This document shows positions 4,088-33,175 of a DNA stretch of 35,814 nucleotides, one piece after another. The notes beneath the pieces were generated by a model that ran no database searches, was not told the DNA's origin, and saw only the letters and a list, made by a program, of their open reading frames with translations. Position numbers and translations under genes: made by a program. The stretch's first letter is position 1; each line of letters starts with the position of its first letter. This DNA is from Escherichia phage P88, in sequence record NC_026014.1; one strand, given 5' to 3'.

Positions 4088-4914
4088 AGAAATTCAAACT
4101 CTTTCAGATTCTCCCGCTTTTTGCCGCCATCCTGCTGGTTGGCTGCGATCGCGTTGAGCCAGGTAATGTGGGCATCAAAGTCAACAAGCTGGGCGACGAC
4201 AAAGGCGTTGGCGAAGTGGTTGGCGTTGGCCGCTACTGGACTGGCTGGAATACAGAGGTTTACATCTTCCCGACCTTCAAACAAATGAAGACCTACGATG
4301 AGCCGTTCAGCTTCCAGATGAGTGACGGCACAACCATCGGCTATCACATCGGCGTGGCTTACAAGGTTGATCCATCCAAAGTTACCACAGTGTTTCAGAC
4401 CTACCGCAAAGGCGTGGATGACATTACCGACACTGACCTGCGCCAGAAGATCGCCGATGCACTCAACCGACTGGCCAGCAAAATGACCACCGATAAGTTT
4501 ATCGACGGTGGTAAGTCTGAACTGCTGGATTCAGCACTTAAAGATATTCAGGAAGAGATGACCCCCATCGGCATTCAGGTCATGAGCCTCTCTTATGTCG
4601 GTAAACCGGAATATCCGCCAACCGTTATCGACAGCATTAACGCCAAAGTCACGGCAAACCAGAAAACCCTGCAACGCGAACAGGAAGTCAAGCAACGCGA
4701 AGCTGAAGCCAACATGTTGCGCGCAGAAGCTGCCGGACAGGCTGATGCCATTCGCACAAAAGCCCAGGCTGAAGCTGACGCCATTCGTTTACGCGGTGAA
4801 GCTCTGCGCCAGAATCCCGGCGTTATGGAGCTGGAAGCAATCAACAAATGGAACGGCACGCTGCCGCAATACATGACCAGCAATACTGCTGTTCCGTTTG
4901 TTCCGGTGAAGTAA
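4084..4914 (+). CDS. SPFH/Band-7 (stomatin/prohibitin/HflC-like) lipoprotein
   Basis: 276 aa; lipoprotein signal with lipobox LLVGC; SPFH-like core; Ala/Glu-rich C-terminal coiled coil typical of Band-7 proteins. Confidence 0.85.
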   Translation: MKKFKLFQILPLFAAILLVGCDRVEPGNVGIKVNKLGDDKGVGEVVGVGRYWTGWNTEVYIFPTFKQMKTYDEPFSFQMSDGTTIGYHIGVAYKVDPSKVTTVFQTYRKGVDDITDTDLRQKIADALNRLASKMTTDKFIDGGKSELLDSALKDIQEEMTPIGIQVMSLSYVGKPEYPPTVIDSINAKVTANQKTLQREQEVKQREAEANMLRAEAAGQADAIRTKAQAEADAIRLRGEALRQNPGVMELEAINKWNGTLPQYMTSNTAVPFVPVK

Positions 4915-4920
4915 TTAAAC

Positions 4921-4963
4921 CCGGCCAGTGAAAACCGCTGGCCGGAGCAGTATCAGGATTTTT
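4921..4963 (+). terminator. Putative intrinsic terminator after the SPFH gene
   Basis: Stem CCGGCCAG / CTGGCCGG followed within about 13 nt by a T-run. Confidence 0.35.
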
Positions 4964-5060
4964 TAGTATGTCGTTCTCACAAAAAAACCGCTTGCCATGC
5001 CGCAATCAGTCAGGTTACATTTCCGCTGCACCTCATAAAACGGGTGCCGGGATTTCCACC

Positions 5061-5102
5061 CCGCTGACAACTACAGCGCACAACCGCGCCAGCGGTTTTT
5101 TT
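5061..5102 (+). terminator. Putative intrinsic terminator within a structured non-coding region
   Basis: CCGCTG ... GCGCCAGCGG hairpin followed by seven T. Confidence 0.4.
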
Positions 5103-5281
5103 GTGCGTACTGTATCGCCACGTCTTTTTCGCACACGAATTATGGTGGGGCGTACGGGGCCGACTTCGGTCGGGCCGGGTTCTGTAGTTGCCGGTTGTGG
5201 AAACCCTGTACGTCTCACCACCCCGAGTTTTCCACCTCTGGATGGTGAGTTTTCAAAACTTGCAACTACAGAGGCCACACC

Positions 5282-5512
5282 ATGGCAAACCGCAAACAGC
5301 ACCGCGCTATCGCGGAGCGTCGTCACATCCAGACTGAAATCAACCGCAGACTTTTCCGCGCATCACGCGTCGCGCAAATCATGCACATCAATATGCTGCA
5401 TGAGCGCAGCCACGCACTATCAAACATCTATTCCGCCGCTGTTTTCAGCTATCTGGCGGATGATCTGCACGAGCTTCAACAGCTCATCCAGCAGCAAAAC
5501 AAACTCCATTAA
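5282..5512 (+). CDS. Hypothetical protein (uncertain)
   Basis: 76-aa ORF with AGAGG SD; basic, helical; no family recognised. Confidence 0.35.
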   Translation: MANRKQHRAIAERRHIQTEINRRLFRASRVAQIMHINMLHERSHALSNIYSAAVFSYLADDLHELQQLIQQQNKLH

Positions 5513-8824: not shown

Positions 8825-8855
8825 CGATTAATTAATCAACATAAGGAAAAGCGAC

Positions 8856-9815
8856 ATGAAAATTTGTATCGACGACGGCTCCACCAACATCAAGCTGGCA
8901 TGGACTGAGAACGGCGAACGCCGCAACGCCATCAGCCCGAACAGCTTCAAGTCGGAATGGTCTGCGCCGTTCGGCGGCACGCAGCCCGCGAACTACATGC
9001 TTGATGGCGTGCGCTATGGTTTTGATCCGGTCAGCGATCGCTTTGTCCAGACGACCGACACGCAATACCAGTACAGCGATGTAAATGTCATTGCCATTCA
9101 TCACGCGCTGGTCAAATCAGGCATCACGCCACAGGAGGTGGATGTGGTTGTCACCCTGCCACTGAGCGAGTATTTCGACACAAACGCACAGCCGGACATG
9201 GCCAACATCAACCGCAAAAAAGCGAACGTTATGCGCCCGGTGGAGTACCAGAACGGCGAAGCATTCACTATCCGTAACGTGCGGGTTATGCCTGAATCCA
9301 TTCCGGCTGGCTTTAAAGCACTGGCTGACATGAGTCCGTTTGAATCCCTGCTGATTGTGGATTTAGGTGGAACCACGCTGGATGTGGCAAAGGTTCAGGG
9401 ACAACTGGCAGGTATCAGCCAGGTGTTTTGCGATCCACACGTAGGCGTTTCCCTGATGGCCGATGCAGTACTGTCGGTGATGGCCACTAACGGTATGCGT
9501 ACCAGTCACCACATCGCCAATACCATTATCGAACATCGCCATGATGAAGCCTGGCTGCGCCAGCACATCCACAATGACGCGCATTACGCCAGCCTGATGG
9601 CGGTTATTCGTGAAAAGGAAGAAACACTGAAACAACGCGTGATCCGCGCGCTGGCGGGTTTTTCGGGTTACGGGCGGGTGATGGTTGTCGGTGGCGGGGC
9701 GGAGATTGTGGCACCCGCTATCCGCGAAGCCTGCGGAGTTAATGCGACTTTCATCGCGGACGGGGTGCCACAGTTTGCTCTGGTTAATGGGCTGTACGCA
9801 ATGGACAAGGAGTAA
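8856..9815 (+). CDS. parM: ParM/StbA-like actin-type ATPase (type II partition motor)
   Basis: 319 aa; N-terminus MKICIDDGSTNIKLAW...ISPNSFKSEW co-linear with plasmid R1 ParM (MLVFIDDGSTNIKLQW...ISPNSFKREW, from memory); also QYSDVNV, IVDLGGTTLDV, VMVVGGGAE. Confidence 0.9.
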   Translation: MKICIDDGSTNIKLAWTENGERRNAISPNSFKSEWSAPFGGTQPANYMLDGVRYGFDPVSDRFVQTTDTQYQYSDVNVIAIHHALVKSGITPQEVDVVVTLPLSEYFDTNAQPDMANINRKKANVMRPVEYQNGEAFTIRNVRVMPESIPAGFKALADMSPFESLLIVDLGGTTLDVAKVQGQLAGISQVFCDPHVGVSLMADAVLSVMATNGMRTSHHIANTIIEHRHDEAWLRQHIHNDAHYASLMAVIREKEETLKQRVIRALAGFSGYGRVMVVGGGAEIVAPAIREACGVNATFIADGVPQFALVNGLYAMDKE

Positions 9816-9819
9816 ACCA

Positions 9820-10131
9820 ATGACGACACCAACCAGACGGATAAGTTTCTATCTGAAGCCCGCCGCCGTCAAGAACGAAGGCGAAGCATGCGCCTGGCTG
9901 GACAGCCTTACACCAGAAGCCCGCAAAAGCGGCCAACGTGTGGCTTTTCTGGCCGGGCTGGCACTTCTGAAAATGAATCCGGCAGAGGCTTACCGACTGG
10001 CTGCATGGGCTGACGATGAGGCGTTATCAGTGACACAAACCAGGACAGAACGCCCCGCGTCACAGCCAGTACCAACCACACAGATAACCAGTCGGATGGC
10101 CGGAAATATCAGGGCGTTATTTCCCGAATAA
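9820..10131 (+). CDS. parR: ParR/StbB-like centromere-binding adaptor
   Basis: 103 aa from the ATG 4 nt after the parM stop; RRISFYLKP...LDSLTP...RVAFLAGLALLKMNP parallels R1 ParR (RRTIAFKLNP...LDSIPQ...AALTAGLALYRQDP, from memory). Confidence 0.7.
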   Translation: MTTPTRRISFYLKPAAVKNEGEACAWLDSLTPEARKSGQRVAFLAGLALLKMNPAEAYRLAAWADDEALSVTQTRTERPASQPVPTTQITSRMAGNIRALFPE

Positions 10132-15164: not shown

Positions 15165-16217
15165 ATGAATCTGGTGATGTCAGATATTACCCGCAACAAG
15201 CTGGGTTGCTATATGGCGCAGCAGGCGTCGCTTAACAATATCCCGGTATCTGCACTGGTATCGCGATTTACCGTGGAACCCTCGGTGCAGCAGCGTTTTG
15301 AAAACGCAGTAAAGGAGAGCACTGAATTTACAAAAAAAATTAACGTGTTCGGTGTGACTGACCAGAAAGGCGAAAAAATCCTCCTGGACACCACCGGGCC
15401 GATTGCGCGCACGAATACCAGTTATGACGGCACAAAACGCCGTAACCCGAATAACGTGGTTGATCTGAAAAACCGCAAATACCAGTGCGAACAGGTGAAC
15501 TACGACACGTTTATTTCGTATCCGCAGCTTGATGCCTGGGCGGCACACCCTGATTTTCAGTCCCGCGTCAGCACACAGATTGCCCGGCAGGTGGCGCTTG
15601 ACCGCATCATGATCGGTTTCAACGGCACGTCTCACGCGGATGAGTCCAACTTCAGCACTAACAAGCTGCTTCAGGACGTTAACGTGGGATGGCTGGAGCA
15701 CATCAGAACCGACGCCAGCGAGCGCGTTATGAATGATGTAACGCTGACCTCCCGCAACATGGACAACACCGTGGCGCACGCGGGTAAATATGCGAACGCT
15801 GATGCACTGGTACAGGACGCGCGCTCATCCCTGCTGGATGAATGGCACAAGGAAGCTGACGACCTCGTGGTGATTATGGGGCGCAACCTGTTTAACTCGC
15901 TGCGTCTGCCCGTGCTGAACAGCATCAGCGGCCAGAATCCCAATGCGGAATTACTTGCCGGACAGCTCATCCTGTCATCGCGCGCCATTGGCGGGCTGGA
16001 TGTATTCCTTGCGCCGTTCTTCCCGGATGCAACGATGCTGATCACCTCGTTCAACAACCTGTCAATTTACTGGCAGAAAGGAACAATGCGTCGCCTGATG
16101 AAAGACGAGCCGGAATACAACCGCATCGCCACCTACCAGTCCATCAATGACGCTTATGTCGTTGAAGACTATGGCAAGTGCGCGATGGTCACTGGCCTGA
16201 AGTTCGCCGACAGCTAA
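15165..16217 (+). CDS. N: Major capsid protein (P2 gpN-like)
   Basis: 350 aa; blocks FTVEPSVQQ, MLQDVNVGWL, LVVIMGRNL, NLSIYWQ, YVVEDYG match the P2 N pattern. Confidence 0.93.
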   Translation: MNLVMSDITRNKLGCYMAQQASLNNIPVSALVSRFTVEPSVQQRFENAVKESTEFTKKINVFGVTDQKGEKILLDTTGPIARTNTSYDGTKRRNPNNVVDLKNRKYQCEQVNYDTFISYPQLDAWAAHPDFQSRVSTQIARQVALDRIMIGFNGTSHADESNFSTNKLLQDVNVGWLEHIRTDASERVMNDVTLTSRNMDNTVAHAGKYANADALVQDARSSLLDEWHKEADDLVVIMGRNLFNSLRLPVLNSISGQNPNAELLAGQLILSSRAIGGLDVFLAPFFPDATMLITSFNNLSIYWQKGTMRRLMKDEPEYNRIATYQSINDAYVVEDYGKCAMVTGLKFADS

Positions 16218-16262
16218 TCACCTCACGGCGGGCATCATGCCCGCCTGTAACGGAGAGAAAAA

Positions 16263-17063
16263 ATGATTACTCCTGCACAGCAACACTGGCAGAACGTGAT
16301 GGCACAGCGCGCAGGCCGGGCGAATGAAGGCGTGGACCACGCCGCGCGTACCGCGCATGAAGAGGTGCTGTATCGTCTGCGTCTGGCACAGGCCCGGCTT
16401 AAGGGCGTACAGGCCAGAAGCGCGAAAGCCGCCATCAAAAAAGAGTTATTGCCGGACTTTTCCGGCTGGATTGAGGGAACGCTGGAGGCTGACGGCGGGC
16501 AGCAGGATGAAGTGATTGCCACGCTGATGGTGTGGGCGATTGACTGCGGCGATCTTCCGCTGGCGCTGCGTATTGGTGCATATGTGGTCCGTCACAACCT
16601 CATCATGCCGGATAACTTTGGACGTACTGCTGCCACGGTACTGACCGAAGAAATCTGTAATCCGGTACTGACGCAGGCCGGGACGGATGCCGACGCGGAT
16701 TTGTCCGCCTTTATCGAACCACTGGACACCCTCCGGGAGATTGTCACCGACCAGGACATGCCGGACGAAGTGCGCGCCAAATTATGCAAAGCGTGCGCCT
16801 TTGCCCGCCGTGGCCTGACCGATGCGGACAGCATGGCCTCATCACTGAAGCTGCTGCGCGAAGCGATGCACCTGAACCCGAACGCAGGTGTGAAACGCGA
16901 GATTGCAACCCTTTCCCGCGCCCTGAAAAAAGCCGATTCCGCAGCCGAACCAGAAGACGCCAGCGCACCGCAGGCGCAGGACGAAAGCAGCAAAAGTAAA
17001 AAGACAACGCGGAAGCCTGCAACACGAAAAACCACCGCGACGCAGAAGGCGAAGCGCGGTTAA
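16263..17063 (+). CDS. M: Terminase small (endonuclease) subunit (P2 gpM-like)
   Basis: 266 aa; KKELLPDF, MPDEVRAKL and basic C-terminal tail as in P2 M. Confidence 0.88.
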   Translation: MITPAQQHWQNVMAQRAGRANEGVDHAARTAHEEVLYRLRLAQARLKGVQARSAKAAIKKELLPDFSGWIEGTLEADGGQQDEVIATLMVWAIDCGDLPLALRIGAYVVRHNLIMPDNFGRTAATVLTEEICNPVLTQAGTDADADLSAFIEPLDTLREIVTDQDMPDEVRAKLCKACAFARRGLTDADSMASSLKLLREAMHLNPNAGVKREIATLSRALKKADSAAEPEDASAPQAQDESSKSKKTTRKPATRKTTATQKAKRG

Positions 17064-17155
17064 CGACTGACCCCGTCAGCGGGCGGCGTGCGCGGTGTTC
17101 CGGTTTGACTCCGTGACCGTTTACACCGCGCACCCACCGCCCGATTTTTTCAGGA

Positions 17156-17659
17156 GTGAACCCCATGAGTATGGTTGCCAGAACTGAACCCGGACCCGCA
17201 GAGGACGACATCACCGATACCGATGATGGCGATACCCGTATTTCAGCGGGCGCATTCTGGCCGGATATTGTGCTGCGCGAGCTGCGTCTGGCGGTACGAC
17301 TGCCGGGCCGCGTGACCACCTCCCGCCTGCTGCATACTGCCACCGGGGCTGTGGCACACGTTACCCGCGAGCTGGAAGCATGGCAGCAGGAACAGCAGGC
17401 AGCTGGCCATCAGACGCTGGCCGATGTTCCGGCACCCGTAATTAACGGAGAAAGCGTCAATCTCTGGCACTGGCGCAATGCTGTTTATACCGCCACGCGC
17501 GCCCTGATTCTGGAGCGTTATCGTGATGCAGACACAACGGACAAGGGCGACCGCCGGGCGGACGCTCTGGATATACAGACATCGGATTTGTGGCGTGATG
17601 TGAGCTGGGCCATCTCTGACATTCTGTGCCGCCCGCGAATCTTTGCGGAGCTGTGCTGA
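17156..17659 (+). CDS. L: Head completion/stabilisation protein (P2 gpL-like)
   Basis: 167 aa; LADVPAP...GESV...ERYRD...KGDRRADALD...LWRDVSWA parallels P2 L; start could instead be the ATG at 17165. Confidence 0.82.
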   Translation: MNPMSMVARTEPGPAEDDITDTDDGDTRISAGAFWPDIVLRELRLAVRLPGRVTTSRLLHTATGAVAHVTRELEAWQQEQQAAGHQTLADVPAPVINGESVNLWHWRNAVYTATRALILERYRDADTTDKGDRRADALDIQTSDLWRDVSWAISDILCRPRIFAELC

Positions 17660-17859
17660 TGAAAGTGAAGGCACTAGAAGGCGACACCGTGGATTCGCTC
17701 TGTTTCCGGTACTACGGCACGACGCAGGGCGTCACCGAAAAGGTGCTGGATGCCAACCCCGGACTCTGTCAGCAGGTATTTCTGGACGCCGGGCAGGAAG
17801 TTGAGATGCCGGAGCCGGAGAAGAAGAAACGAGAAATGATTCAGTTGTGGGGGGAGTAG
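17659..17859 (+). CDS. X: Tail protein X (LysM-like, P2 gpX-like)
   Basis: 66 aa from the ATG overlapping the L stop (TGATG); MKVKALEGDTVDSLCFRYYGTTQGVTEKVLDANPGL matches P2 X. Confidence 0.82.
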   Translation: MKVKALEGDTVDSLCFRYYGTTQGVTEKVLDANPGLCQQVFLDAGQEVEMPEPEKKKREMIQLWGE

Positions 17860-18185
17860 CAGTGAGCACCATTCAAACAGGGATCACAGAGCAGGTTATT
17901 GCGTGGCTCTTTGACCACCTGCCAACGGTGTATGCAGCAGGCGCGGCGGTCAGCATTTCCGCGCTGATGAGTCTTTATGACGGACGAACACTGGTTCAGA
18001 CCGTAACGGGATCGCTGGCGTGCGGCGTTCTTGCCATGGCCGTGGCCGGGTCGTTGCGCTTCTTCGGGTTTCCTGAAGATGCCGTGACGTTTATCGGCGC
18101 ATCAATCGGTTTTATGGGTGCAGAGAAAGCACGCGACAAGGTTATTGCGGCCTTTAATCGCAGGGTGAAGGAGAAGGACGAATGA
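17847..18185 (+). CDS. Y: Holin (P2 gpY-like)
   Basis: 112 aa with hydrophobic helices and charged C-terminus, immediately before the endolysin. Confidence 0.7.
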   Translation: MGGVAVSTIQTGITEQVIAWLFDHLPTVYAAGAAVSISALMSLYDGRTLVQTVTGSLACGVLAMAVAGSLRFFGFPEDAVTFIGASIGFMGAEKARDKVIAAFNRRVKEKDE

Positions 18186-18574
18186 GCAACACATTTAAAT
18201 TCAGCAGCCGGAGCGAAAAGAATTTGCAGGGCGTAAATCCTGATCTGGTGAAAGTGACCCGACGGGCACTGGAAATCTCGGAAGTGGATTTTGGTATCAC
18301 CGAAGGGTTGCGCAGCCGTTACCGCCAGAAGCAACTGGTGGCCACGGGTAAGAGCCAGACCATGAACAGCCGCCACCTTACGGGGCATGCCGTGGATGTT
18401 GTGGCTTATATCGGCAGCCAGGTGTCATGGGAATGGCCGCTGTACGAAAAAATCGCAGCAGCATTCAGACAGGCCAGCCGGGAACTGAATATTCCGGTGG
18501 AATGGGGCGGCGACTGGAAGACTCTGAAAGACGGACCGCATTTTCAGTTACCACACGGAGCCTATCCGGCATGA
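18182..18574 (+). CDS. Endolysin, peptidase M15-type zinc endopeptidase (not a P2 K-type lysozyme)
   Basis: 130 aa; SRHLTGHAVDV and WGGDW motifs fit the M15/VanY-like metallopeptidase fold; position between holin and spanins. Confidence 0.8.
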   Translation: MSNTFKFSSRSEKNLQGVNPDLVKVTRRALEISEVDFGITEGLRSRYRQKQLVATGKSQTMNSRHLTGHAVDVVAYIGSQVSWEWPLYEKIAAAFRQASRELNIPVEWGGDWKTLKDGPHFQLPHGAYPA

Positions 18575-18978
18575 AGCTCTGGCCCACGCTTGGCGTCGCT
18601 TTCCTTCTGATTGCCGGATGGGGAACATCCATGCGTCTGTCGTGGTCGCTGGGCCGGGAGAACGCCAGAAACGAAGCGCAGGCCAGCACCCTGAAAAGTA
18701 CCGCCGACACCCTGAATATCATCAGCGCCAGGGTACAGGATATGCAACAGGTGCTGGCGCAACTCCGCGTGGAAAATCAGCAACGCAATCAGGACGGAGA
18801 GGTAAGACGTGAACAGCTACGCAACGATATTGCAAAAGATGAATGCGCCCACGCTTTGCCTGACGCTCGTTTTACTGACAGGTTGCGCAGGCACGCAGAA
18901 CGCGCCACGGCCAGCGCCGTCAGTCCGGCTTATACCGCAGACGCTGACCATACCGGTAACGCCTCCCCCCTTCCCTAA
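18571..18978 (+). CDS. Inner-membrane spanin (Rz / LysB-like)
   Basis: 135 aa from the ATG overlapping the endolysin stop; N-terminal TM helix then charged coiled-coil region; o-spanin gene overlaps its 3' end in another frame. Confidence 0.7.
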   Translation: MKLWPTLGVAFLLIAGWGTSMRLSWSLGRENARNEAQASTLKSTADTLNIISARVQDMQQVLAQLRVENQQRNQDGEVRREQLRNDIAKDECAHALPDARFTDRLRRHAERATASAVSPAYTADADHTGNASPLP

Positions 18979-19129
18979 CACTCCCACATGGGGAAATCTC
19001 GGTATATGGGGCGACCGCCTTCTGGATGCACTGGAAACCTGTAACGCGGATAAACGGGCCATTGAATTACTGGAACAGCGCAGGCTGCAACGACTGAACA
19101 ACGAGGACAACAACCATGCTGAAAACTGA
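18809..19129 (+). CDS. Outer-membrane lipoprotein spanin (Rz1 / LysC-like)
   Basis: Signal peptide with lipobox LLTGC then Pro-rich region; alternative start at the internal ATG 18839. Confidence 0.65.
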   Translation: MNSYATILQKMNAPTLCLTLVLLTGCAGTQNAPRPAPSVRLIPQTLTIPVTPPPFPNTPTWGNLGIWGDRLLDALETCNADKRAIELLEQRRLQRLNNEDNNHAEN

Positions 19130-19583
19130 TTCCCTGCGTGAAGCCATGACCCGTTCATGCCGATGGTGTCAGGCCAACCCGGAAAAATTCACCATTTTCG
19201 TGGAGAGCGGCAACATTGAAACGACAGGAGAAACCCCATCGTTTGTTTACCGCTATCAGATGGTGATGTTTGTCATGGATTACGCCGGGGAGCTGGATGA
19301 CCTCACGCTGCCGCTGCTGGCGTGGTTATCCGAAAATCAGCCACAGTTGTTGCTCAACCCTGAGCGTAATCAGGACATCAAATTCTCCGCCGTTATCAAT
19401 GACGATGACAGCGCCGATCTCCTGTTTACGCTCCCCCTGCGGGAACGCGTTCGCATCACGCGCAGCAGTCAGGGCACACCGCAGGCAGAACACCTGCCGG
19501 AGCCAAAACCCCGCCTGCCCTCTTCCGAAGGCGACTGGTCGCATGTATTCCAGGATGTGACGTGGGGTGAAAGCGATGGATAA
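19116..19583 (+). CDS. R: Tail completion protein R (P2 gpR-like)
   Basis: 155 aa, same length and position as P2 R. Confidence 0.82.
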   Translation: MLKTDSLREAMTRSCRWCQANPEKFTIFVESGNIETTGETPSFVYRYQMVMFVMDYAGELDDLTLPLLAWLSENQPQLLLNPERNQDIKFSAVINDDDSADLLFTLPLRERVRITRSSQGTPQAEHLPEPKPRLPSSEGDWSHVFQDVTWGESDG

Positions 19584-20211
19584 GGCATTCACACGCGTGG
19601 ATGAAACCTTTGAGGCCATCCGCGACAGCCTGAATCAGCAGGCCATCAATAACATCGCCAGAAAGCTGGCACAGGATTTACGCCGCGCCCAGCAGGCGCG
19701 TATCCGGTCACAGAAAGCGCCGGACGGGACCGCGTGGACACCACGCAGACGCCGCGTAACCCGGATACAGGAACGCATTCGCTTTATCTGGAATAACGAA
19801 GCACGCACGCTGAAAAACTGGCATCACGACACGGGGAAATACGGGCGAACCATTACCGGGTGGGATGAGGATAAAAACAATATCCGCACGTTTTACCGGG
19901 ATGACATCGACCGTTTTCTGGAAATACGCACCCGGCGCATCAACCAGGACAGCACAAAGCGCGTCCCCATGTTCGTAAAACTGCGCACCGCCCGCTACCT
20001 GAAAGCCCGTGCAGATGCTTCCGGTGTGACGGTGGGTTACAGCGGCGTGGCCGCACGTATTGCCCGCGTTCATCAGTTCGGTGAGCGCGATCAGGTTGCG
20101 CCGGGCATTTTCACCGATTACCCGGTACGTGAGCTGCTGGGTATCAGCCAGGCAGATGAGCGCCTGATTTATAACACGGTGCTGGGCCGGATTGCGGAGG
20201 CTGTACGGTGA
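19567..20211 (+). CDS. S: Tail completion / virion morphogenesis protein S (P2 gpS-like)
   Basis: 214 aa, longer than P2 S (150 aa); position between R and V; start could be the ATG at 19576. Confidence 0.8.
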   Translation: MKAMDKAFTRVDETFEAIRDSLNQQAINNIARKLAQDLRRAQQARIRSQKAPDGTAWTPRRRRVTRIQERIRFIWNNEARTLKNWHHDTGKYGRTITGWDEDKNNIRTFYRDDIDRFLEIRTRRINQDSTKRVPMFVKLRTARYLKARADASGVTVGYSGVAARIARVHQFGERDQVAPGIFTDYPVRELLGISQADERLIYNTVLGRIAEAVR

Positions 20212-20789
20212 GCGCAGAACTCATGCGACTGCTGAGCAATATCATCCGCACCGGGATCATCTCTGAAGTTGATGAGAAGTCCTGGCGCGTGCGCGTTCGC
20301 AGCGGCGAACTGGAAACAGGCTGGTTGCGCTGGAACACCACGCGCGCGGGAGCCTTCAATGTGTGGCTGCCGCCATCACCAGGCGAACAGGTGGTAATTG
20401 CCTGCATTGGCGGCAACCCGGAAACCGCCATGATAATTGGCAGCCTGTGGAGTGATGCCAGTCCGGCACCCGGCAAAAGCCTGAAAGAAATCGTGATCAG
20501 CGCGCCGGACGGCGCGGTGTTCCGCTACGACGCGGACGCTGGCGCACTGAGCGCCAGCGGCATGAAAACGGCCACTTTACAGGCATCCGTCAGCGTGACA
20601 CTGGATACGCCCGTCGTGGAATGCACAAACCTTCTGAGAACGGCGACGCTTGACGTCACAAAAGGAGGAAAGATGAGCGGCAATATCACGCACAGCGGCG
20701 GCGACTTCACCTCAAACGGCATTACCGTGCATACGCATAAACACGGTGGCGTGAAAGGCGGCAGCGATTCGACAGGAGGCCCGCAGTGA
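20208..20789 (+). CDS. V: Baseplate spike/assembly protein V (P2 gpV-like)
   Basis: 193 aa; Gly-rich C-terminus HTHKHGGVKGGSDSTGGPQ typical of gpV spikes; overlaps S stop. Confidence 0.88.
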   Translation: MSAELMRLLSNIIRTGIISEVDEKSWRVRVRSGELETGWLRWNTTRAGAFNVWLPPSPGEQVVIACIGGNPETAMIIGSLWSDASPAPGKSLKEIVISAPDGAVFRYDADAGALSASGMKTATLQASVSVTLDTPVVECTNLLRTATLDVTKGGKMSGNITHSGGDFTSNGITVHTHKHGGVKGGSDSTGGPQ

Positions 20790-22561: not shown

Positions 22562-24856
22562 ATGAGTACCACAACACGAAAATTTAAAACCGTTATCACC
22601 GATACGGGTGCAAAAAAATTAGCTCAGGCAGCCGCGCCAGATGGTAAGCCTGTCCGCCTGACTCATATGGCAGTGGGCGACGGTGGCGGCACGTTGCCCA
22701 CACCAGACAGTAAGCAGACCCGTCTGGTGCATGAGGTGTGGCGACATACTGTTAATCGCGTCATCCTGGACGCAACACATCAGAACCGCATTATTGCGGA
22801 GCTGGTTATTCCTCCTGAAACGGGCGGATTCTGGATCCGGGAAATTGGTGTATTTGATGAGCACGGCGATTTAATCGCGGTGGGAAATACTGCCGAAAGT
22901 TACAAGCCAGCCGTTGCCGAAGGGTCCGGTCGTGCACAAACATTTCGCACCATTCTGACCGTATCCAGCACTGCCACCGTGGCGCTTACCGTGGATAACA
23001 CCATGGTGATGGCCACAGTGGATTACGTGGATGACAAACTGAAAGAGCATGAACAGTCACGACGTCACCCGGACGCCTCGCTGACCGCAAAAGGCTTTGT
23101 TCAACTCAGTAGCGCCACTAACAGCGTGTCTGAAACGCAGGCTGCAACGCCGAAAGCAGTAAAGGCCGCGTATGATCTTGCTAACGGTAAATATACTGCG
23201 CAGGATGCCAGCACGACGCGAAAAGGCCTTGTCCAGCTCAGTAGCGCCACCAACAGCACGTCTGAAACGCAGGCTGCAACGCCGAAAGCAGTAAAGGCCG
23301 CGTATGACCTTGCTAACGCAAAATATACCGCTCAGGACGCTACGACGGCACAAAAAGGGATAGTCCAGCTCAGTAGTGCCACCAACAGCACGTCTGAAAC
23401 ACTGGCCGCGACATCGAAAGCGGTTAAGGCGGTAATGGATGAAACGAACAAGAAAGCGCCCTTAAACAGTCCTGCGTTGACCGGAACGCCAACAACGCCA
23501 ACTGCGCGACAGGGAACGAATAATACCCAAATCGCAAGCACGGCTTTCGTTATGGCTGCGATTGCCGCCCTTGTAGATTCGTCACCTGACGCACTGAATA
23601 CGCTGAACGAGTTAGCGGCGGCGCTGGGAAACGACCCGAATTTTGCGACCACCATGACTAACGCGCTTGCGGGTAAGCAACCGAAAGATGCCACCCTGAC
23701 GGCGCTGGCCGGGCTTGCTACTGCGGCAGACAAGTTTCCGTATTTTACGGGGAATGATGTCGCCAGCCTGGCAACCCTGACAAAAGTCGGGCGGGATATT
23801 CTTGCGAAATCGACCGTTGCTGCCGTTATCGAATACCTCGGTTTACAGGAAACGGTAAACAGGGCTGGTAACGCCGTGCAAAAAAATGGCGATACCTTAT
23901 CCGGTGGGCTTACTTTTGAAAACGACTCAATCCTTGCCTGGATTCGAAATACTGACTGGGCAAAGATTGGTTTTAAAAATGATGCCGATAGCGATACTGA
24001 TTCATACATGTGGTTTGAAACAGGCGACAACGGCAATGAATATTTCAAATGGAGAAGCAAACAAAGCACCACAACAAAAGACCTGATGAATCTTAAATGG
24101 GATGCTTTGTCTGTTCTTGTTAAAGCCCTTTTCAGCAGTGAAGTAAAAATATCGACAGTCAATGCACTGAGGATATTTAATTCATCTTTTGGTGCCATTT
24201 TTCGCCGTTCTGAAGAATGCCTGCATATCATCCCTACACGAGAGAATGAGGGGGAAAATGGCGATATAGGGCCGCTACGCCCCTTTACGCTTAATCTCAG
24301 AACTGGTCGCATAAATATGGGGCATGGTCTGGATGTTACAGGAGATATAACAACTAACGCATGGGTGTACGCAAACCGCCTTGCAATTAACAGCAGCACA
24401 GGCATGTGGATTCATATGCGTGACCAGAATGTTATTTTTGGACGTAATGCGGTATCCACTGATGGTGCTCAGGCTTTGCTCCGTCAGGACCATGCCGACC
24501 GCAAATTTATGATTGGCGGTCTGGGAAATAAGCAATTTGGCATCTACATGATTAATAACTCAAGGACAGCCAATGGCACCGATGGTCAGGCGTACATGGA
24601 CAATAACGGTAACTGGCTTTGCGGTGCGCAAATTATTCCCGGAAATTATGGCAATTTTGACTCACGCTATGTGAGAGATGTCCGACTTGGCACACGTGTT
24701 GTTCAATTGATGGCGCGTGGAGGGCGTTATGAAATAGCCGGACACGCACTTACCGGATTAAGGATTATTGGTGAAGTTGATGGCGATGATGAAGCTATCT
24801 TCAGGCCGATACAAAAATACATCAATGGCATATGGTATAACGTCGCACAGGTGTAA
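22562..24856 (+). CDS. H: Tail fibre protein H; C-terminal third lies in an invertible segment
   Basis: 764 aa; three tandem 44-aa fibre repeats; crossover site at residues 422-430 (VIEYLGLQE); C-terminal ...FRPIQKYINGIWYNVAQV. Confidence 0.93.
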   Translation: MSTTTRKFKTVITDTGAKKLAQAAAPDGKPVRLTHMAVGDGGGTLPTPDSKQTRLVHEVWRHTVNRVILDATHQNRIIAELVIPPETGGFWIREIGVFDEHGDLIAVGNTAESYKPAVAEGSGRAQTFRTILTVSSTATVALTVDNTMVMATVDYVDDKLKEHEQSRRHPDASLTAKGFVQLSSATNSVSETQAATPKAVKAAYDLANGKYTAQDASTTRKGLVQLSSATNSTSETQAATPKAVKAAYDLANAKYTAQDATTAQKGIVQLSSATNSTSETLAATSKAVKAVMDETNKKAPLNSPALTGTPTTPTARQGTNNTQIASTAFVMAAIAALVDSSPDALNTLNELAAALGNDPNFATTMTNALAGKQPKDATLTALAGLATAADKFPYFTGNDVASLATLTKVGRDILAKSTVAAVIEYLGLQETVNRAGNAVQKNGDTLSGGLTFENDSILAWIRNTDWAKIGFKNDADSDTDSYMWFETGDNGNEYFKWRSKQSTTTKDLMNLKWDALSVLVKALFSSEVKISTVNALRIFNSSFGAIFRRSEECLHIIPTRENEGENGDIGPLRPFTLNLRTGRINMGHGLDVTGDITTNAWVYANRLAINSSTGMWIHMRDQNVIFGRNAVSTDGAQALLRQDHADRKFMIGGLGNKQFGIYMINNSRTANGTDGQAYMDNNGNWLCGAQIIPGNYGNFDSRYVRDVRLGTRVVQLMARGGRYEIAGHALTGLRIIGEVDGDDEAIFRPIQKYINGIWYNVAQV
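23090..23440 (+). repeat. Tandem in-frame repeat, about 2.7 copies of 132 bp (44 aa) inside H
   Basis: Repeat unit KG(F/L/I)VQLSSATNS(V/T)SETQAATPKAVKAAYDLAN..YTAQDA occurs at residues 177, 221 and 265. Confidence 0.75.
23826..23851. repeat. Left crossover site of the invertible segment (gix/hix/cix-like, 26 bp)
   Basis: TTATCGAATACCTCGGTTTACAGGAA; near-exact inverted repeat of the site at 26897..26922 (23 of 26 after reverse-complementing). Confidence 0.75.
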
Positions 24857-24859
24857 ATT

Positions 24860-25387
24860 ATGCAGCATTTAAAAAATATTAAGTCTGGAAATCCAAAAAC
24901 AAAAGAACAATATCAGCTAACAAAGAATTTTGATGTTATCTGGTTATGGTCCGAAGACGGAAAAAACTGGTATGAGGAAGTGAAAAACTTTCAGCCAGAC
25001 ACAATAAAGATTGTTTACGATGCAAATAATATTATTGTCGCCATCACCAAAGATGCCTCCACGCTTAACCCTGAAGGTTATAGCGTCGTTGAGGTTCCTG
25101 ATATTACAGCTAATCGTCGTGCTGATGATTCCGGTAAGTGGATGTTTAAGGACGGAGCTGTGGTTAAACGGATTTATACGGCAGACGAGCAACAACAACA
25201 GGCCGAATCACAAAAGGCCGCGTTACTTTCCGAAGCAGAAAACGTTATTCAGCCACTGGAACGCGCTGTCAGGCTGAATATGGCGACGGATGAGGAACGC
25301 GCACGACTGGAGTCATGGGAACGCTATAGTGTTCTGGTCAGCCGTGTGGATACGGCAAATCCTGAATGGCCACAAAAGCCTGAATAA
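24860..25387 (+). CDS. G: Tail fibre assembly chaperone (P2 gpG-like)
   Basis: 175 aa immediately after H; N-terminal [24 protein letters not shown]... of the Tfa family. Confidence 0.9.
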
Positions 25388-25415
25388 AAATTAAGGCCCG
25401 ATAGCGGGCCTTGTT

Positions 25416-25949
25416 TCATTCTGGTTGTTCTGGAAACGTTACTGGCAGGCTGGAGGTGTCTGTGGATTCGACCTTCTGCGCATAGAGCATCCACTCGGTT
25501 AATTTTTGTTTATTCTCGTCGGGAATGATACCCAGCCGTAGCTGTGAGTCCCATAGCTGGGTTTTATCCCTGACAAGTTGCAACAGGCTTTGCTTTTCAT
25601 TCTCTGCCTGCTGCCTCTGTTCCTCCTCGGTATAAGTTCGCTTTATCACTACGCCATCTTTGAACATCCATTTACCCGAAATATCAGCCCGGCGATTTGC
25701 TGTAATATCAGGTAATTCAACGACGCTTGCGCCTTCCGGATTAATTGCTGAAACATCCTTTTCAATACAAATAATAACGCCGTTATGGTCATAGACCATT
25801 TTCAAAGTGTCTGGCTGGAAATTCTTTTGTTCCTCATACCAGTTTTTTCCATCATCTGAATAAAGCCATTTGATGTTAAATTGCTTTGTTAGCTGGTATT
25901 GCTCTTTTGTTTTAGGGTTGCCAGCAGTAATGTTTTTTAAGTGCATCAT
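25416..25949 (-). CDS. Alternative tail fibre assembly chaperone (G')
   Basis: 177 aa; N-terminal half almost identical to G, divergent C-terminal half; convergent with G. Confidence 0.9.
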   Translation of the reverse strand: MMHLKNITAGNPKTKEQYQLTKQFNIKWLYSDDGKNWYEEQKNFQPDTLKMVYDHNGVIICIEKDVSAINPEGASVVELPDITANRRADISGKWMFKDGVVIKRTYTEEEQRQQAENEKQSLLQLVRDKTQLWDSQLRLGIIPDENKQKLTEWMLYAQKVESTDTSSLPVTFPEQPE

Positions 25950-25951
25950 CG

Positions 25952-26914
25952 TTAAATACTCCCCGCGTTATACCACGTCCCATTAATGCAATACTGAATT
26001 GGCCTTGCCTGAGTTGTATCAATTAATTCATCACGGTTTCCGTTAACTGAACCCGTAACGACATAACCTGACCTGTCAGACCAGCCGGGGCCATTCCATG
26101 TCTGAACAGATGACAGACCGCCAAGGCGAATACCTGTAATAAACCTTGAGTTACATTCTGCCTGCGTGTATGCACCAACATCTCCCGCAGAGGGTTTGCG
26201 GGTCGTGGTGTAAAACTCTGACCAGTCAGCCTCAAATCCATAACCATCACGCGCTGAACGATAAAAAATACCGCCGTTCCTGTAATTCACGCGGAACTGT
26301 ACAGCAGGGCAGCTCCCCGTATTCATATTGAAGTGGAGGATTAATGTCGATGCGCCACCAATGTTTGCGTTATAGACCCCGCTATTCCAGTTCCAGCCAA
26401 CAGCTTTATCATTTCCGACAGTGCTTCCTGTTTGCCCTAAAGCAAATGCAGGTTGTTGATTTTTCGTGTTGTAGTCTCGTCGCCAGCCAGGAGCATAAGC
26501 ATCACCATGATTAATATAAGTGAATTGAGCGTTAGTAATTCCGCCACCGCTGGACGTGCTCGGCGTGGTAACGCGTATGGTCATTGCGCCGCGAGTGCCA
26601 ATAACTTCCACCACAGCACCTGCAAGACAAATATTTCCGCAACCTGTATCTGTAATGACCTTATTATTTGCATAAGCCCATGAGCCTTTGCACATCCAGT
26701 AAGGATGGTTAAATGCTCCCTGACTCTCCAGCCACGAAATAAATTGCGCGGTTGTCCAGACCTGACTATCGCCACCAATATTCAGCCATGCGCTATATGC
26801 GCGGCAGGCCCCAATATTTTTGGTGAAGGTATCTTTTCCCGGAATATCTGCGCCGTTCTGGTTTTTCTGTAATGCGCCAGAAGCCTGATTTACCGTTTCC
26901 TGTAAACCGAGGTT
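25952..26914 (-). other. Alternative tail-fibre C-terminal segment (Hv'), start-less, fused to H after inversion
   Basis: Minus-strand frame is open from the right crossover site; my translation reads NLGLQETVNQASGALQKNQNG... across the site, matching H at YLGLQETVNRAGNAVQKNG; ends ...RPIQYCINGTWYNAGSI like H. Confidence 0.75.
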
Positions 26915-26922: not shown

Positions 26923-26976
26923 TGGCCGTTTCTGACCTGCATGGCATGATTTACGCTTTTGGACGGGAGATTCAGC

Positions 26977-27564
26977 GTGCTGATTGGCTATGTAAGGGTA
27001 TCAACAAATGACCAGAATACAGACCTGCAACGAAACGCTCTTGTTTGTGCAGGATGTGAACAAATATTTGAAGATAAATTAAGCGGGACAAAGACAGACC
27101 GACCGGGATTAAAACGCGCTTTAAAGCGCCTTCAAAAAGGTGACACGCTGGTTGTCTGGAAACTGGATCGCCTCGGGCGAAGCATGAAACATCTGATTTC
27201 TCTCGTCGGGGAACTACGGGAGCGAGGGATTAATTTTCGCAGTCTGACCGACAGCATAGATACATCTTCTCCAATGGGGCGTTTTTTCTTCCACGTGATG
27301 GGTGCCCTGGCTGAAATGGAACGTGAATTAATTGTTGAACGTACACTGGCCGGACTGGCAGCAGCGCGCGCACGGGGGCGCACAGGCGGACGTCGCCCGA
27401 AGCTGACAAAAGAACAGCATGAGCAAATAGCAAGGCTGATTAAAAACGGTCACGACAGAAAACAACTGGCAATAATTTACGGCATTGGTACATCGACGAT
27501 TTATCGTTACCACCCCGCAGGAGAATCAAGCGGAACAATAGAGAAGAGTCAGAAAACAAAATAA
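26977..27564 (+). CDS. Serine DNA invertase (Gin/Cin/Pin/Hin family)
   Basis: From the GTG start the product begins MLIGYVRVSTNDQNTDLQRNAL... (catalytic Ser in VRVSTNDQ), near-identical to the Gin/Pin N-terminus as I recall; C-terminal HTH. The track ORF starts at a TTG at 26959. Confidence 0.9.
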   Translation: MLIGYVRVSTNDQNTDLQRNALVCAGCEQIFEDKLSGTKTDRPGLKRALKRLQKGDTLVVWKLDRLGRSMKHLISLVGELRERGINFRSLTDSIDTSSPMGRFFFHVMGALAEMERELIVERTLAGLAAARARGRTGGRRPKLTKEQHEQIARLIKNGHDRKQLAIIYGIGTSTIYRYHPAGESSGTIEKSQKTK

Positions 27565-31991: not shown

Positions 31992-33175
31992 CAGGCACCT
32001 CCCAGCACCGCAAATGCGGGTTCAAAGTATTCATCAGTAAACGTCTGGTAAAGCTCCATGTCTTCCAGTGGCGGAACGGGCGTATATTTGTAGCGAATAC
32101 GCACACGTCCCTGACGTAAATCCGTGGTGCTGTTATCCACCACGTCATACCAGCACTCCGCGCCAATCAGTTTCCCGGCAGTAACCAGTGAATCCAGTTT
32201 TGCCCTGATGGCACTGATAACATCCTTCACGTTCGCAGGCGTCAGTGGACTGTCGATGGTTTCAAACTGCGCTTCCGCAATTGAATCAGCCAGCACCTGT
32301 GCGGTTCGGGTATACACCTCAAAGATGTAGGCGTTCGTTTCCGGTGTGCGGTTGCCCCAGAAGCGGAACCCGTTGCGACGAATAATGGTCGTGATTTCTT
32401 TGTTGTTGAGGCTGTTGGCATCGCTGTCTTCGGCCTGCAACGACCAGAACACATGCCTCGACATCCCCAGCACATTTTTAACCGGAACGTTGGACAGTGA
32501 TTTGTGCCATCCCTGCTCATGGTCAATGTACGCACGAAGGCCGCACGCATAGGCAGACGCGGGGAACGTTTCGTTTTTGCCACTTTTCGGGTTGTAGGCG
32601 ATGAAGTCCGGCCATAAGAGCATCACCTCACGTTCGTTGAATTTCTGGCGGTAGGTAATCGCCTCAGCCATCGTGTTACAGCCGTGACATGAGGCATACA
32701 CAAACGCGCGCAGTTTACCTGCAATCACGCACAGGGATTTTGTTACAGCCTCCGTGTCCAGCTCCGGCGCGGCCAGAATACGCGGACGGTATCCGATGCT
32801 TTCATCCTGCTCTGCAACAAGCAGCGCATACATCCCCGTATAGCTGCCGTCATCCTCAGAACCACCGATAACCAGTTGATCCTGCGTCTTTCCGTCTTCT
32901 TCTTTGTGTTCAGCCACGCGAACGACGATCACCTTTGTGCTCACCTGGTCTGCGATGGCCTTAAGCGCACGATAAAGCGTCCCCGTTGTCCCGCATTTTC
33001 CCAGCACGTCATTGACGCGGGTCAGCAGTGTGGGCTTGTTCAGCGGGAACAGCTTCGCGTCCGCATCATCCGCCGTTGCCACGATACCGATAACGCTGGA
33101 ATCAACATCGTTAATCGCTGTTACCAGGTCGGTATTTTCCGTAACACGGGCACCATGAAAACGAGTTTCACTCAT
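31991..33175 (-). CDS. FI: Contractile tail sheath protein (P2 gpFI-like)
   Basis: 394 aa, P2 FI-like size; first gene of the sheath-tube-chaperone-tape measure operon. Confidence 0.93.
   Translation of the reverse strand: MSETRFHGARVTENTDLVTAINDVDSSVIGIVATADDADAKLFPLNKPTLLTRVNDVLGKCGTTGTLYRALKAIADQVSTKVIVVRVAEHKEEDGKTQDQLVIGGSEDDGSYTGMYALLVAEQDESIGYRPRILAAPELDTEAVTKSLCVIAGKLRAFVYASCHGCNTMAEAITYRQKFNEREVMLLWPDFIAYNPKSGKNETFPASAYACGLRAYIDHEQGWHKSLSNVPVKNVLGMSRHVFWSLQAEDSDANSLNNKEITTIIRRNGFRFWGNRTPETNAYIFEVYTRTAQVLADSIAEAQFETIDSPLTPANVKDVISAIRAKLDSLVTAGKLIGAECWYDVVDNSTTDLRQGRVRIRYKYTPVPPLEDMELYQTFTDEYFEPAFAVLGGA

What the first reader, a model, noticed from the sequence alone, without database searches (positions are those of the whole stretch)
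17847..19129. Lysis cassette uses an M15 peptidase endolysin instead of a P2 K-type lysozyme
The holin is followed by a 130-aa M15/VanY-like zinc peptidase and then overlapping inner- and outer-membrane spanin genes. This is a module swap relative to P2, showing mosaicism in the lysis region.
Basis: partly seen in the sequence, partly recalled or inferred. Interest (0 to 1): 0.28.

Follow-up and report, generated by a model that had tools for sequence, protein, structure and literature searches.

The report
Ordinary P88-type prophage lysis cassette
This is the standard, already annotated lysis gene set of a P88-like (Xuanwuvirus) E. coli prophage, a lambda-type holin, an M15 cell-wall peptidase and two overlapping spanin genes; it does differ from phage P2's set, but the same cassette is in about one in five complete E. 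coli genomes.

Summary
Between tail gene X and tail gene R lie four genes:
- a lambda-S-family holin, 17862-18185 (the longest ORF starts at 17847);
- a 130-aa M15 zinc peptidase, 18182-18574;
- an inner-membrane spanin, 18571-18978;
- an overlapping, +1-frame outer-membrane lipoprotein spanin, 18809-19129.

The peptidase is 62% identical to Serratia ChiX, a solved L-Ala-D-Glu endopeptidase, and keeps all of ChiX's zinc and catalytic residues. It has no lysozyme signature.

The holin belongs to a different family, lysA is absent, and only the LysC-type o-spanin is recognisably shared.

The clearest evidence of a swap lies within the genus. Citrobacter phage Shae_phiSM and some E. coli prophages carry a GH108 muramidase in the same slot, and homology breaks at window 18163-18591.

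Relatives of the M15 gene also sit in Mu-like, terminase-adjacent and tail-gene-adjacent (P2 Y-family holin) loci, next to other holin families.

Nothing here is new. The cassette is 95-99% identical in 1,008 of 5,426 complete E. coli genomes and in named Xuanwuvirus phages, where it is annotated as an M15 metallopeptidase or endolysin. Interest is low.

The parts
17862..18185 (+). Holin of the lambda S family, 107 aa from GTG 17862. The longest ORF starts at GTG 17847 and gives 112 aa.
   Evidence: Pfam Phage_holin_3_1 E=1.2e-19 and PHROG_126 E=3.9e-35. TIGR01594 holin_lambda 55.7 bits against a cut-off of 55.05. The 15-residue hydrophobicity scan flags residues 22-39 and 43-70; a third membrane segment (about 75-88) and the charged C-terminal tail are read from the sequence by eye. 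GGGGAG at 17851-17856 lies 5 nt before GTG 17862. RefSeq annotates this start in phage 520873.
18182..18574 (+). Endolysin: a 130-aa soluble M15 (LAS-type) zinc peptidase, predicted to be an L-Ala-D-Glu endopeptidase.
   Evidence: Pfam Peptidase_M15_4 E=8.1e-12 and PHROG_465 endolysin E=5.1e-77. PDB matches: ChiX 5opz 2.5e-48 (61.9% identity, ungapped) and T5 L-alanyl-D-glutamate peptidase 2mxz 8.8e-23. H65, D72, H120, D117 and R44 align with ChiX H68, D75, H123, D120 and R47 (PMC5778951). No hydrophobic segment, so no signal or SAR anchor. Its ATG overlaps the holin stop as ATGA at 18182-18185.
18571..18978 (+). Inner-membrane spanin (Rz/LysB analogue), 135 aa.
   Evidence: PHROG_214 Rz-like spanin E=2.2e-41. 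Weak Pfam DUF2570 match, E=8e-4 and below the cut-off. A single N-terminal hydrophobic segment at residues 1-21. Its ATG overlaps the endolysin stop as ATGA at 18571-18574.
18809..19129 (+). Outer-membrane lipoprotein spanin of the P2 LysC family. It lies in the +1 frame, starts inside the i-spanin gene and extends past it (overlapped architecture).
   Evidence: Pfam LysC PF23793 E=1.2e-13; PHROG_3001 and PHROG_456 Rz-like spanin. 31% identity to P2 LysC over 78 aa. Lipobox LLTGC with Ala at +2. GGAGAGG at 18796-18802 lies 6 nt before GTG 18809. The start is uncertain: ATG 18839 is possible, and PGAP uses CTG 18860.
18163..18591 (+). Exchangeable endolysin module. This is the only segment with no DNA homology to Citrobacter phage Shae_phiSM, which has a 640-bp GH108 + PG_binding_3 gene segment here.
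   Evidence: blastn gives 96.9% identity over window 16101-18162 and 98.1% over 18592-20700, with nothing between. The Shae gene matches Pfam Glyco_hydro_108 at 1.1e-26 and PG_binding_3 at 4.8e-25. The junction sequences are shown.
17659..17859 (+). Left flank: tail protein X (P2 gpX homologue).
   Evidence: Pfam Phage_tail_X E=8.3e-21. 48% identity to P2 X.
19116..19583 (+). Right flank: tail completion protein R (P2 gpR homologue). Its start overlaps the end of the o-spanin gene.
   Evidence: Pfam P2_Phage_GpR E=4.6e-40. 40% identity to P2 R.

Best explanation
This is the lysis cassette of a P88-like (genus Xuanwuvirus, family Peduoviridae) temperate phage integrated in E. coli. It sits in the late operon between tail genes X and R.

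Inferred mechanism, by homology with lambda, T5 and P2:
1. The lambda-S-type holin accumulates in the inner membrane and, at a set time, forms large holes.
2. The holes release the cytoplasmic, signal-less 130-aa M15 zinc peptidase.
3. The peptidase cuts the L-Ala-D-Glu bond of the peptidoglycan stem peptides.
4. The inner-membrane spanin and the lipoprotein outer-membrane spanin then disrupt the outer membrane.

The four genes appear translationally coupled: two ATGA start/stop overlaps, and an o-spanin gene nested in the +1 frame.

The cassette is non-orthologous to P2's Y-K-lysA-lysB block; only the LysC-type o-spanin is detectably shared. The endolysin slot is a true exchange point. Close relatives carry a GH108 muramidase there, and close relatives of the M15 gene sit in unrelated phage types next to other holin families.

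Shown here: gene content, family assignments, conserved catalytic residues, swap breakpoints and prevalence. Inferred: enzymatic specificity, holin dependence and lysis function.
For: - Family assignments for all four genes and both flanks.
- Sequence match to solved L-Ala-D-Glu endopeptidases (ChiX, T5 Lys) with conserved Zn ligands and catalytic Asp.
- No transmembrane or signal segment in the peptidase; an N-terminal hydrophobic segment in the i-spanin; a lipobox in the o-spanin. For the holin, the scan flags two hydrophobic stretches (22-39, 43-70); the third membrane segment is read from the sequence.
- Gene overlaps and Shine-Dalgarno sequences.
- No sigma-70-like promoter site and no convincing terminator inside the cassette; the single terminator-like match, inside the holin gene, is within the chance expectation.
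- No homologue of P2 Y, K, lysA or lysB, and no GH108, anywhere in the window.
- P2 uses Phage_holin_3_2 and a lambda-R-like K.
- 98.9% DNA identity to Xuanwuvirus phages with the same annotated gene order.
- Present at >=80% coverage in 1,008 of 5,426 complete E. coli genomes, where PGAP annotates 'M15 family metallopeptidase', 'phage holin family protein' and 'LysC'.
- GH108 allele in the same slot with sharp breakpoints.
- M15 relatives at 77-81% identity lie in Mu-like (GemA), HNH-adjacent and terminase-adjacent contexts, one with a Phage_holin_8 holin. A 69% relative lies next to a P2 Y-family holin in Burkholderia. The next P2-like prophages have M15 at 71-75% but L, X, R and S at only 35-62%.
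Against: - No experiment was done on this protein. Specificity and lytic role rest on 62% identity to ChiX and on gene context.
- ChiX, the closest characterised homologue, acts in protein secretion rather than phage lysis.
- The o-spanin start codon is uncertain (GTG 18809, ATG 18839 or PGAP's CTG 18860).
- The i-spanin has only PHROG support and a sub-threshold Pfam hit.
- Percent identities, not phylogenetic trees, underlie the claim of lateral exchange.
Confidence: 0.93

Rival explanations
1. The cassette is a type 10 secretion system (ChiWXYZ-like). The holin, M15 endopeptidase and spanins would then release host or phage proteins without lysis, rather than serving phage lysis.
For: The closest characterised homologue is Serratia ChiX (61.9% identity), an L-Ala-D-Glu endopeptidase required for chitinase secretion and encoded in an operon, chiWXYZ (PMC5778951). 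ChiX works in tandem with a holin, ChiW (abstract of PMC4259817). That ChiY and ChiZ are spanin-like is my own knowledge. Some M15 relatives lie in loci where my limited flank checks found no phage structural genes (L021, L022).
Against: The genes lie inside the late structural operon of a complete P2-like prophage, between X and R, exactly where P2 keeps its lysis genes. No secreted cargo gene is adjacent. No other endolysin candidate was found in the prophage that could do the lysis instead.
Confidence: 0.02
2. The 130-aa protein is a VanY-like D-Ala-D-Ala carboxypeptidase, or another cell-wall-remodelling or immunity enzyme, and not the endolysin.
For: The Pfam family it hits, Peptidase_M15_4, is described as 'D-alanyl-D-alanine carboxypeptidase'. 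One T4-like phage record annotates its homologue that way (H55).
Against: Every solved relative whose specificity is named is an L-alanyl-D-glutamate peptidase (ChiX, 8q2g, T5 2mxz, 2vo9), and LysB4 is a phage lysin; the top hit, 23ri, is unnamed beyond 'M15C domain'. PHROG_465 is an endolysin family, E=5e-77. The gene sits between holin and spanins, and no other muralytic gene was found.
Confidence: 0.02
3. This individual prophage recently picked up the M15 gene, making it an unusual recombinant within its lineage.
For: A sister allele (GH108) exists in the same slot with sharp breakpoints.
Against: The M15 version is the common one: 1,008 genomes against at most 66 for GH108, and 13 of the 14 phage records. 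The GC content of the M15 gene (0.545; GC3 0.618) matches its neighbours.
Confidence: 0.03

Closest known systems
Lysis cassette of Xuanwuvirus (P88-like) phages, e.g. Escherichia phage 520873 (NC_049344), 503458, 500465-2 and Xuanwuvirus P884B11
   Same: 98.3-98.9% DNA identity over window 17600-19200. The gene order is the same: X, holin, endolysin, DUF2570 (i-spanin), R. The whole late region is 97.8% identical over 12.9 kb.
   Different: Only single-nucleotide differences. Those phage records leave the o-spanin (LysC) unannotated, whereas PGAP chromosome records annotate it.
Bacteriophage P2 lysis genes Y, K, lysA, lysB, lysC
   Same: Same position in the late operon between X and R. Same overlapped two-gene spanin architecture. 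The o-spanin is in the same Pfam family, LysC.
   Different: The holin is of another family (Phage_holin_3_2 in P2, Phage_holin_3_1 here). The P2 endolysin K is lambda-R-like (1am7, E=4.6e-44), not M15. lysA is absent here. The i-spanin has no BLASTP similarity to LysB, with only weak cross-hits between PHROG_89 and PHROG_214.
Serratia marcescens ChiX (PDB 5opz), phage T5 endolysin (PDB 2mxz) and the 8q2g enzyme: M15/LAS L-alanyl-D-glutamate endopeptidases
   Same: 61.9% ungapped identity to ChiX. The zinc ligands, catalytic Asp and substrate-binding Arg are conserved. Same single-domain size of about 130 aa.
   Different: ChiX serves chitinase secretion in a chromosomal operon, not phage lysis. 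T5 Lys is more distant (E=8.8e-23). Activity of the window protein is untested.
Citrobacter phage Shae_phiSM (Xuanwuvirus) and E. coli prophages carrying the GH108 allele
   Same: Flanks are 97-98% identical. The holin is 92% and the i-spanin 91% identical, and the slot is the same.
   Different: The endolysin is a 181-aa GH108 + PG_binding_3 muramidase with a 54-nt spacer after the holin, in place of the M15 peptidase with its ATGA overlap.

Membership tests
Peptidase M15 / LAS zinc peptidases, L-Ala-D-Glu endopeptidase group (T5 Lys, ChiX) | Profile match above the curated threshold | tested here: met
   Pfam Peptidase_M15_4, 46 bits against a cut-off of 25. PHROG_465, E=5e-77.
Peptidase M15 / LAS zinc peptidases, L-Ala-D-Glu endopeptidase group (T5 Lys, ChiX) | Zinc ligands His-x6-Asp plus a distal His | tested here: met
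   H65, D72 and H120 align without gaps to ChiX H68, D75 and H123 (residue roles from PMC5778951).
Peptidase M15 / LAS zinc peptidases, L-Ala-D-Glu endopeptidase group (T5 Lys, ChiX) | Catalytic acid (ChiX Asp120) and substrate-assisting Arg (ChiX Arg47) | tested here: met
   D117 and R44 align to these residues.
Peptidase M15 / LAS zinc peptidases, L-Ala-D-Glu endopeptidase group (T5 Lys, ChiX) | Cleavage of the L-Ala-D-Glu bond of peptidoglycan stem peptides | not testable with these tools
   Needs purified enzyme and muropeptide analysis.
Holin-endolysin-spanin lysis cassette of phages of Gram-negative hosts | Small membrane protein of a holin family with a charged C-terminal tail | tested here: met
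   Phage_holin_3_1, and TIGR01594 above its cut-off. The scan flags hydrophobic stretches at 22-39 and 43-70; a third segment and the charged tail are read from the sequence.
Holin-endolysin-spanin lysis cassette of phages of Gram-negative hosts | Two-component spanin: an i-spanin with an N-terminal membrane anchor, and an o-spanin lipoprotein with a lipobox encoded in an overlapping +1 frame | tested here: met
   i-spanin hydrophobic segment at residues 1-21. o-spanin lipobox LLTGC with Ala at +2. Frames and overlap come from the coordinates. PHROG_214 and Pfam LysC.
Holin-endolysin-spanin lysis cassette of phages of Gram-negative hosts | Timed lysis that depends on these genes | not testable with these tools
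   Requires prophage induction with gene knock-outs.
P2 K / lambda R-type endolysin | Sequence similarity to P2 K or lambda R | tested here: not met
   BLASTP gives no hit better than E=7. tblastn of P2 K against the whole window finds nothing. P2 K itself matches lambda lysozyme 1am7 at 4.6e-44.
Genus Xuanwuvirus (P88-like Peduoviridae) | High nucleotide identity and shared gene order with named members | tested here: met
   98.3-98.9% over the cassette in six named members. 92-98% over most of the genome against phage 520873, with different integrase and early segments. A whole-genome intergenomic distance was not computed.
Type 10 secretion system (ChiWXYZ-like) | Holin/endopeptidase/spanin operon outside a phage, linked to secreted cargo | tested here: not met
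   The component homology is there (ChiX 62%). The genes, however, sit between X and R in the late operon of a complete prophage that has an integrase, capsid and tail genes.

The most novel reading that the evidence does not exclude
Two endolysins that cut different peptidoglycan bonds, the M15 L-Ala-D-Glu peptidase and the GH108 muramidase, occupy one precisely bounded slot in otherwise 97-98% identical Xuanwuvirus prophages. This could be a selected polymorphism, for example adaptation to host cell-wall modifications or to inhibitors, rather than neutral module shuffling. Separately, the 62% identity to ChiX could mean that this abundant enterobacterial prophage lineage was a direct source of T10SS secretion cassettes.
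Probability: 0.05. Interest if true: 0.35.

Novelty: already known. Interest (0 to 1): 0.07.

Why it matters
It matters little as a discovery. It is a textbook case of modular exchange in phage lysis regions, in a prophage lineage that is very common in E. coli and already annotated in RefSeq. Its practical value is as a clean annotation: corrected holin and o-spanin starts, the enzyme named as an L-Ala-D-Glu endopeptidase rather than a 'D-Ala-D-Ala carboxypeptidase', and a well-delimited natural M15/GH108 swap. That swap could serve as a model for how endolysin modules are exchanged at gene boundaries.

Tried and rejected
- Literature searches found no paper on this cassette. 'P88 + P2-like + endolysin' gave 0 papers. 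'Xuanwuvirus' gave 5 papers whose titles and abstracts do not concern lysis genes. 'P2-like + M15 + endolysin + spanin' gave 2 Burkholderia papers.
- NCBIfam gave no hit for the M15 protein or either spanin.
- The promoter/terminator scan found no promoter-like site, and its two terminator-like matches are below the chance expectation, so the scan gives no sign of separate regulation of the cassette.
- No tRNA genes are in the window.
- Base composition gives no sign that the M15 gene is foreign.
- I considered a recent individual acquisition and rejected it on prevalence.
- I considered a T10SS reading and rejected it on context.
- I did not run structure prediction or the large protein-database searches. 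62% ungapped identity to a solved, biochemically characterised enzyme already answers the family question.
Full report
**1. What is in the sequence**

ORF listing and reading of the DNA show a tight run of + strand genes.

| Gene | Coordinates |
|---|---|
| small terminase | 16263-17063 |
| head completion L | 17156-17659 |
| tail X | 17659-17859 |
| 107/112-aa membrane protein | 17862 or 17847 to 18185 |
| 130-aa protein | 18182-18574 |
| 135-aa protein | 18571-18978 |
| 106-aa +1-frame ORF | 18809-19129 |
| tail completion R | 19116-19583 |
| S | 19567-20211 |
| V | 20208-20789 |

Pfam assigns the flanking genes to the P2 families:
- Phage_term_smal, E=5.9e-37
- Phage_GPL, E=2e-45
- Phage_tail_X, E=8.3e-21
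- P2_Phage_GpR, E=4.6e-40
- Phage_tail_S, E=8.3e-28

**2. Family assignment of the four genes**

- Holin. Pfam Phage_holin_3_1 (lambda S family), E=1.2e-19, and PHROG_126 holin/anti-holin, E=3.9e-35. NCBIfam TIGR01594 holin_lambda scores 55.7 bits, just above its 55.05 cut-off. The hydrophobicity scan flags residues 22-39 and 43-70; a third membrane segment (about 75-88) and the charged C-terminal tail are read from the sequence by eye.
- 130-aa protein. Pfam Peptidase_M15_4, E=8.1e-12 (46 bits against a cut-off of 25), with no other family at E<=0.01. PHROG_465 endolysin, E=5.1e-77.
  - All six matches to solved structures are M15/LAS peptidoglycan peptidases or phage lysins carrying that domain, not lysozymes. 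They are 23ri (2.1e-48), Serratia ChiX 5opz (2.5e-48), 8q2g 'peptidoglycan L-alanyl-D-glutamate endopeptidase' (2.7e-46), T5 L-alanyl-D-glutamate peptidase 2mxz (8.8e-23), 2vo9 and LysB4.
  - The ChiX alignment is ungapped over 126 residues at 61.9% identity.
  - From the residue roles in the ChiX paper (PMC5778951): Zn ligands H68, D75 and H123 correspond to H65, D72 and H120. Catalytic D120 corresponds to D117. R47 corresponds to R44. All are conserved.
  - The protein has no hydrophobic segment. It is therefore a cytoplasmic enzyme that needs a hole-forming holin.
- i-spanin. PHROG_214 Rz-like spanin, E=2.2e-41, with one N-terminal hydrophobic segment at residues 1-21.
- o-spanin. Pfam LysC, E=1.2e-13; PHROG_3001 and PHROG_456. 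The lipobox is LLTGC, followed by Ala.

**3. Gene models**

- The holin most likely starts at GTG 17862. GGGGAG at 17851-17856 lies 5 nt upstream, and the X stop is at 17857-17859. This is the start RefSeq uses in near-identical phages.
- The holin stop and endolysin start overlap as ATGA (18182-18185). The endolysin stop and i-spanin start overlap the same way (18571-18574).
- For the o-spanin I favour GTG 18809, because GGAGAGG at 18796-18802 lies 6 nt upstream and the resulting signal peptide contains a Lys. ATG 18839 is possible.
- PGAP's start corresponds to CTG 18860, which leaves only eight residues before the lipobox Cys. That looks implausible.
- The scan found no sigma-70-like promoter site. 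Its one terminator-like match inside the cassette (17949-17968, in the holin gene) is within the chance expectation. This fits expression as part of the late operon, as in P2, where Y-K-lysA-lysB-lysC lie in the O operon (annotation).

**4. Comparison with P2**

In P2 the X-to-R interval holds Y, K, lysA, lysB and lysC.
- Y is Phage_holin_3_2 / PHROG_175, a different holin family.
- K matches lambda lysozyme 1am7 at 4.6e-44 and PHROG_90.
- BLASTP finds no similarity between the window's holin, M15 protein or i-spanin and any P2 lysis protein.
- The o-spanin is 31% identical to LysC over 78 residues.
- The flanking proteins are 38% (L), 48% (X), 40% (R), 26% (S) and 47% (V) identical.
- tblastn finds no homologue of Y, K, lysA or lysB anywhere in the window.

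So the replacement relative to P2 covers holin plus endolysin, with lysA lost, and not the endolysin alone. The spanin pair keeps the P2-type overlapped architecture. The direction of change cannot be inferred from this comparison.

**5. Identity of the element and prevalence**

- The cassette is 98.3-98.9% identical to Escherichia phages 520873, 503458, 500465-2, PhiR44_2, Chuche and Xuanwuvirus P884B11.
- The window is collinear with phage 520873 (Peduoviridae, Xuanwuvirus), including 97.8% identity over 12.9 kb of late genes.
- It begins with an integrase, an HTH repressor and a Cox homologue, so it is a whole prophage.
- Among 5,426 complete E. coli genomes, 1,008 hold the 1.6-kb query at >=80% coverage, almost all at 95-99% identity. 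PGAP annotates these as 'M15 family metallopeptidase', 'phage holin family protein', 'DUF2570' and 'LysC'.
- tblastn finds homologues of the M15 protein in 1,324 phage records (Salmonella, Escherichia, Klebsiella, Vibrio, T5-like, T4-like and others), usually annotated as endolysin.

The finding is therefore already known and common.

**6. Direct evidence for module exchange**

- Citrobacter phage Shae_phiSM, also a Xuanwuvirus, aligns at 96.9% over window 16101-18162 and 98.1% over 18592-20700, with nothing between.
- In the gap it has a 181-aa GH108 + PG_binding_3 protein.
- The breakpoints lie in the last ~23 nt of the holin gene and the first ~20 nt of the i-spanin gene.
- The GH108 segment occurs in 66 complete E. 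coli genomes, and in the listed cases lies between the same holin and DUF2570 genes.
- A scan of one genome per species found 77 loci with M15 relatives. Flank analysis shows:
  - L009 (Mixta), 77% identity: Mu-like context with GemA.
  - L008 (Citrobacter braakii), 81%: next to an HNH endonuclease.
  - L013 (Mixta), 79%: behind a Phage_holin_8 holin, followed by embedded spanins and then a terminase.
  - L026 (Burkholderia), 69%: next to a P2 Y-family holin.
- The next most similar P2-like prophages (L012, L014, L018) have M15 at 71-75%, but L, X, R and S at only 35-62%.
- This pattern indicates that the endolysin gene moves between phage types. It rests on percent identities, not trees.

**7. 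Mechanism**

The mechanism is inferred from the lambda, T5, P2 and ChiX paradigms.
1. The holin triggers and permeabilises the inner membrane.
2. The soluble M15 enzyme reaches the murein and cuts L-Ala-D-Glu bonds.
3. The spanin complex disrupts the outer membrane.

Gene content, motifs and context are shown here. Enzymatic specificity and the lysis phenotype are inferred.

**8. Rivals**

- A T10SS-like secretion role is suggested only by the kinship to ChiX. The position inside the late operon of a complete prophage argues against it.
- A VanY-like carboxypeptidase role is suggested only by the Pfam family description. The solved relatives with a named specificity argue against it.
- A recent, individual acquisition is contradicted by prevalence and by unremarkable base composition: GC 0.545 against 0.55-0.61 in neighbouring genes.

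**9. Verdict**

Novelty: already known. Interest: low.

Noticed in passing
window 23822-26411 (invertase-like ORF at 26959-27564): This segment aligns in the opposite orientation to Escherichia phage 520873. There the corresponding region holds tail-fibre and tail-fibre-assembly genes next to a gene annotated as DNA invertase. It looks like an invertible host-range segment caught in the other orientation.
   Followed up: partly
L005 4006-5883 (E. coli ST131 chromosome NZ_CP063774): In P88-type prophages of ST131 and others, homology to the window stops at 19064, inside the 3' end of the o-spanin gene. A 625-aa 'DUF6645 domain-containing protein' is inserted between lysC and R. It has no NCBIfam hit and may be a cargo or defence gene at the right edge of the lysis cassette.
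   Followed up: partly
window 18860 (= L006 1861): PGAP annotates LysC from a CTG codon, which leaves only 8 residues before the lipobox cysteine. GTG 18809, which has a good Shine-Dalgarno sequence, or ATG 18839 gives a plausible lipoprotein signal peptide.
   Followed up: partly
window 4084-4914, within 3578-5470: The early region has a stretch with no match to phage 520873. It encodes a 276-aa SPFH/Band 7 protein (Pfam E=5.7e-31) followed by an Ash-family protein, and may be prophage cargo.
   Followed up: partly
window about 32200-32211, against L004 31859-33806: Phage 520873 has an IS100 (IS21-family) insertion that splits its tail sheath gene. The window lacks the insertion, and the two alignment blocks overlap by 12 bp at the junction.
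   Followed up: partly
L021 9-3366 (Klebsiella pneumoniae ATCC 13883); L022 2593-3393 (Trabulsiella odontotermitis): These M15 relatives (68% and 62% identity) lie in loci where my limited flank checks found no phage structural genes. One sits directly after a 959-aa DUF3491 protein. The other follows a Phage_holin_8 holin and precedes a 542-aa ORF that, by its sequence, looks like a methyl-accepting chemotaxis protein (my reading, not tested). They may be T10SS-like secretion loci.
   Followed up: partly
window about 8850-10130 (by collinearity with L004 8952-10227): The near-identical phage 520873 annotates a ParM-type plasmid segregation protein and a partition protein in the early region of this integrating P2-like prophage.
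   Followed up: no
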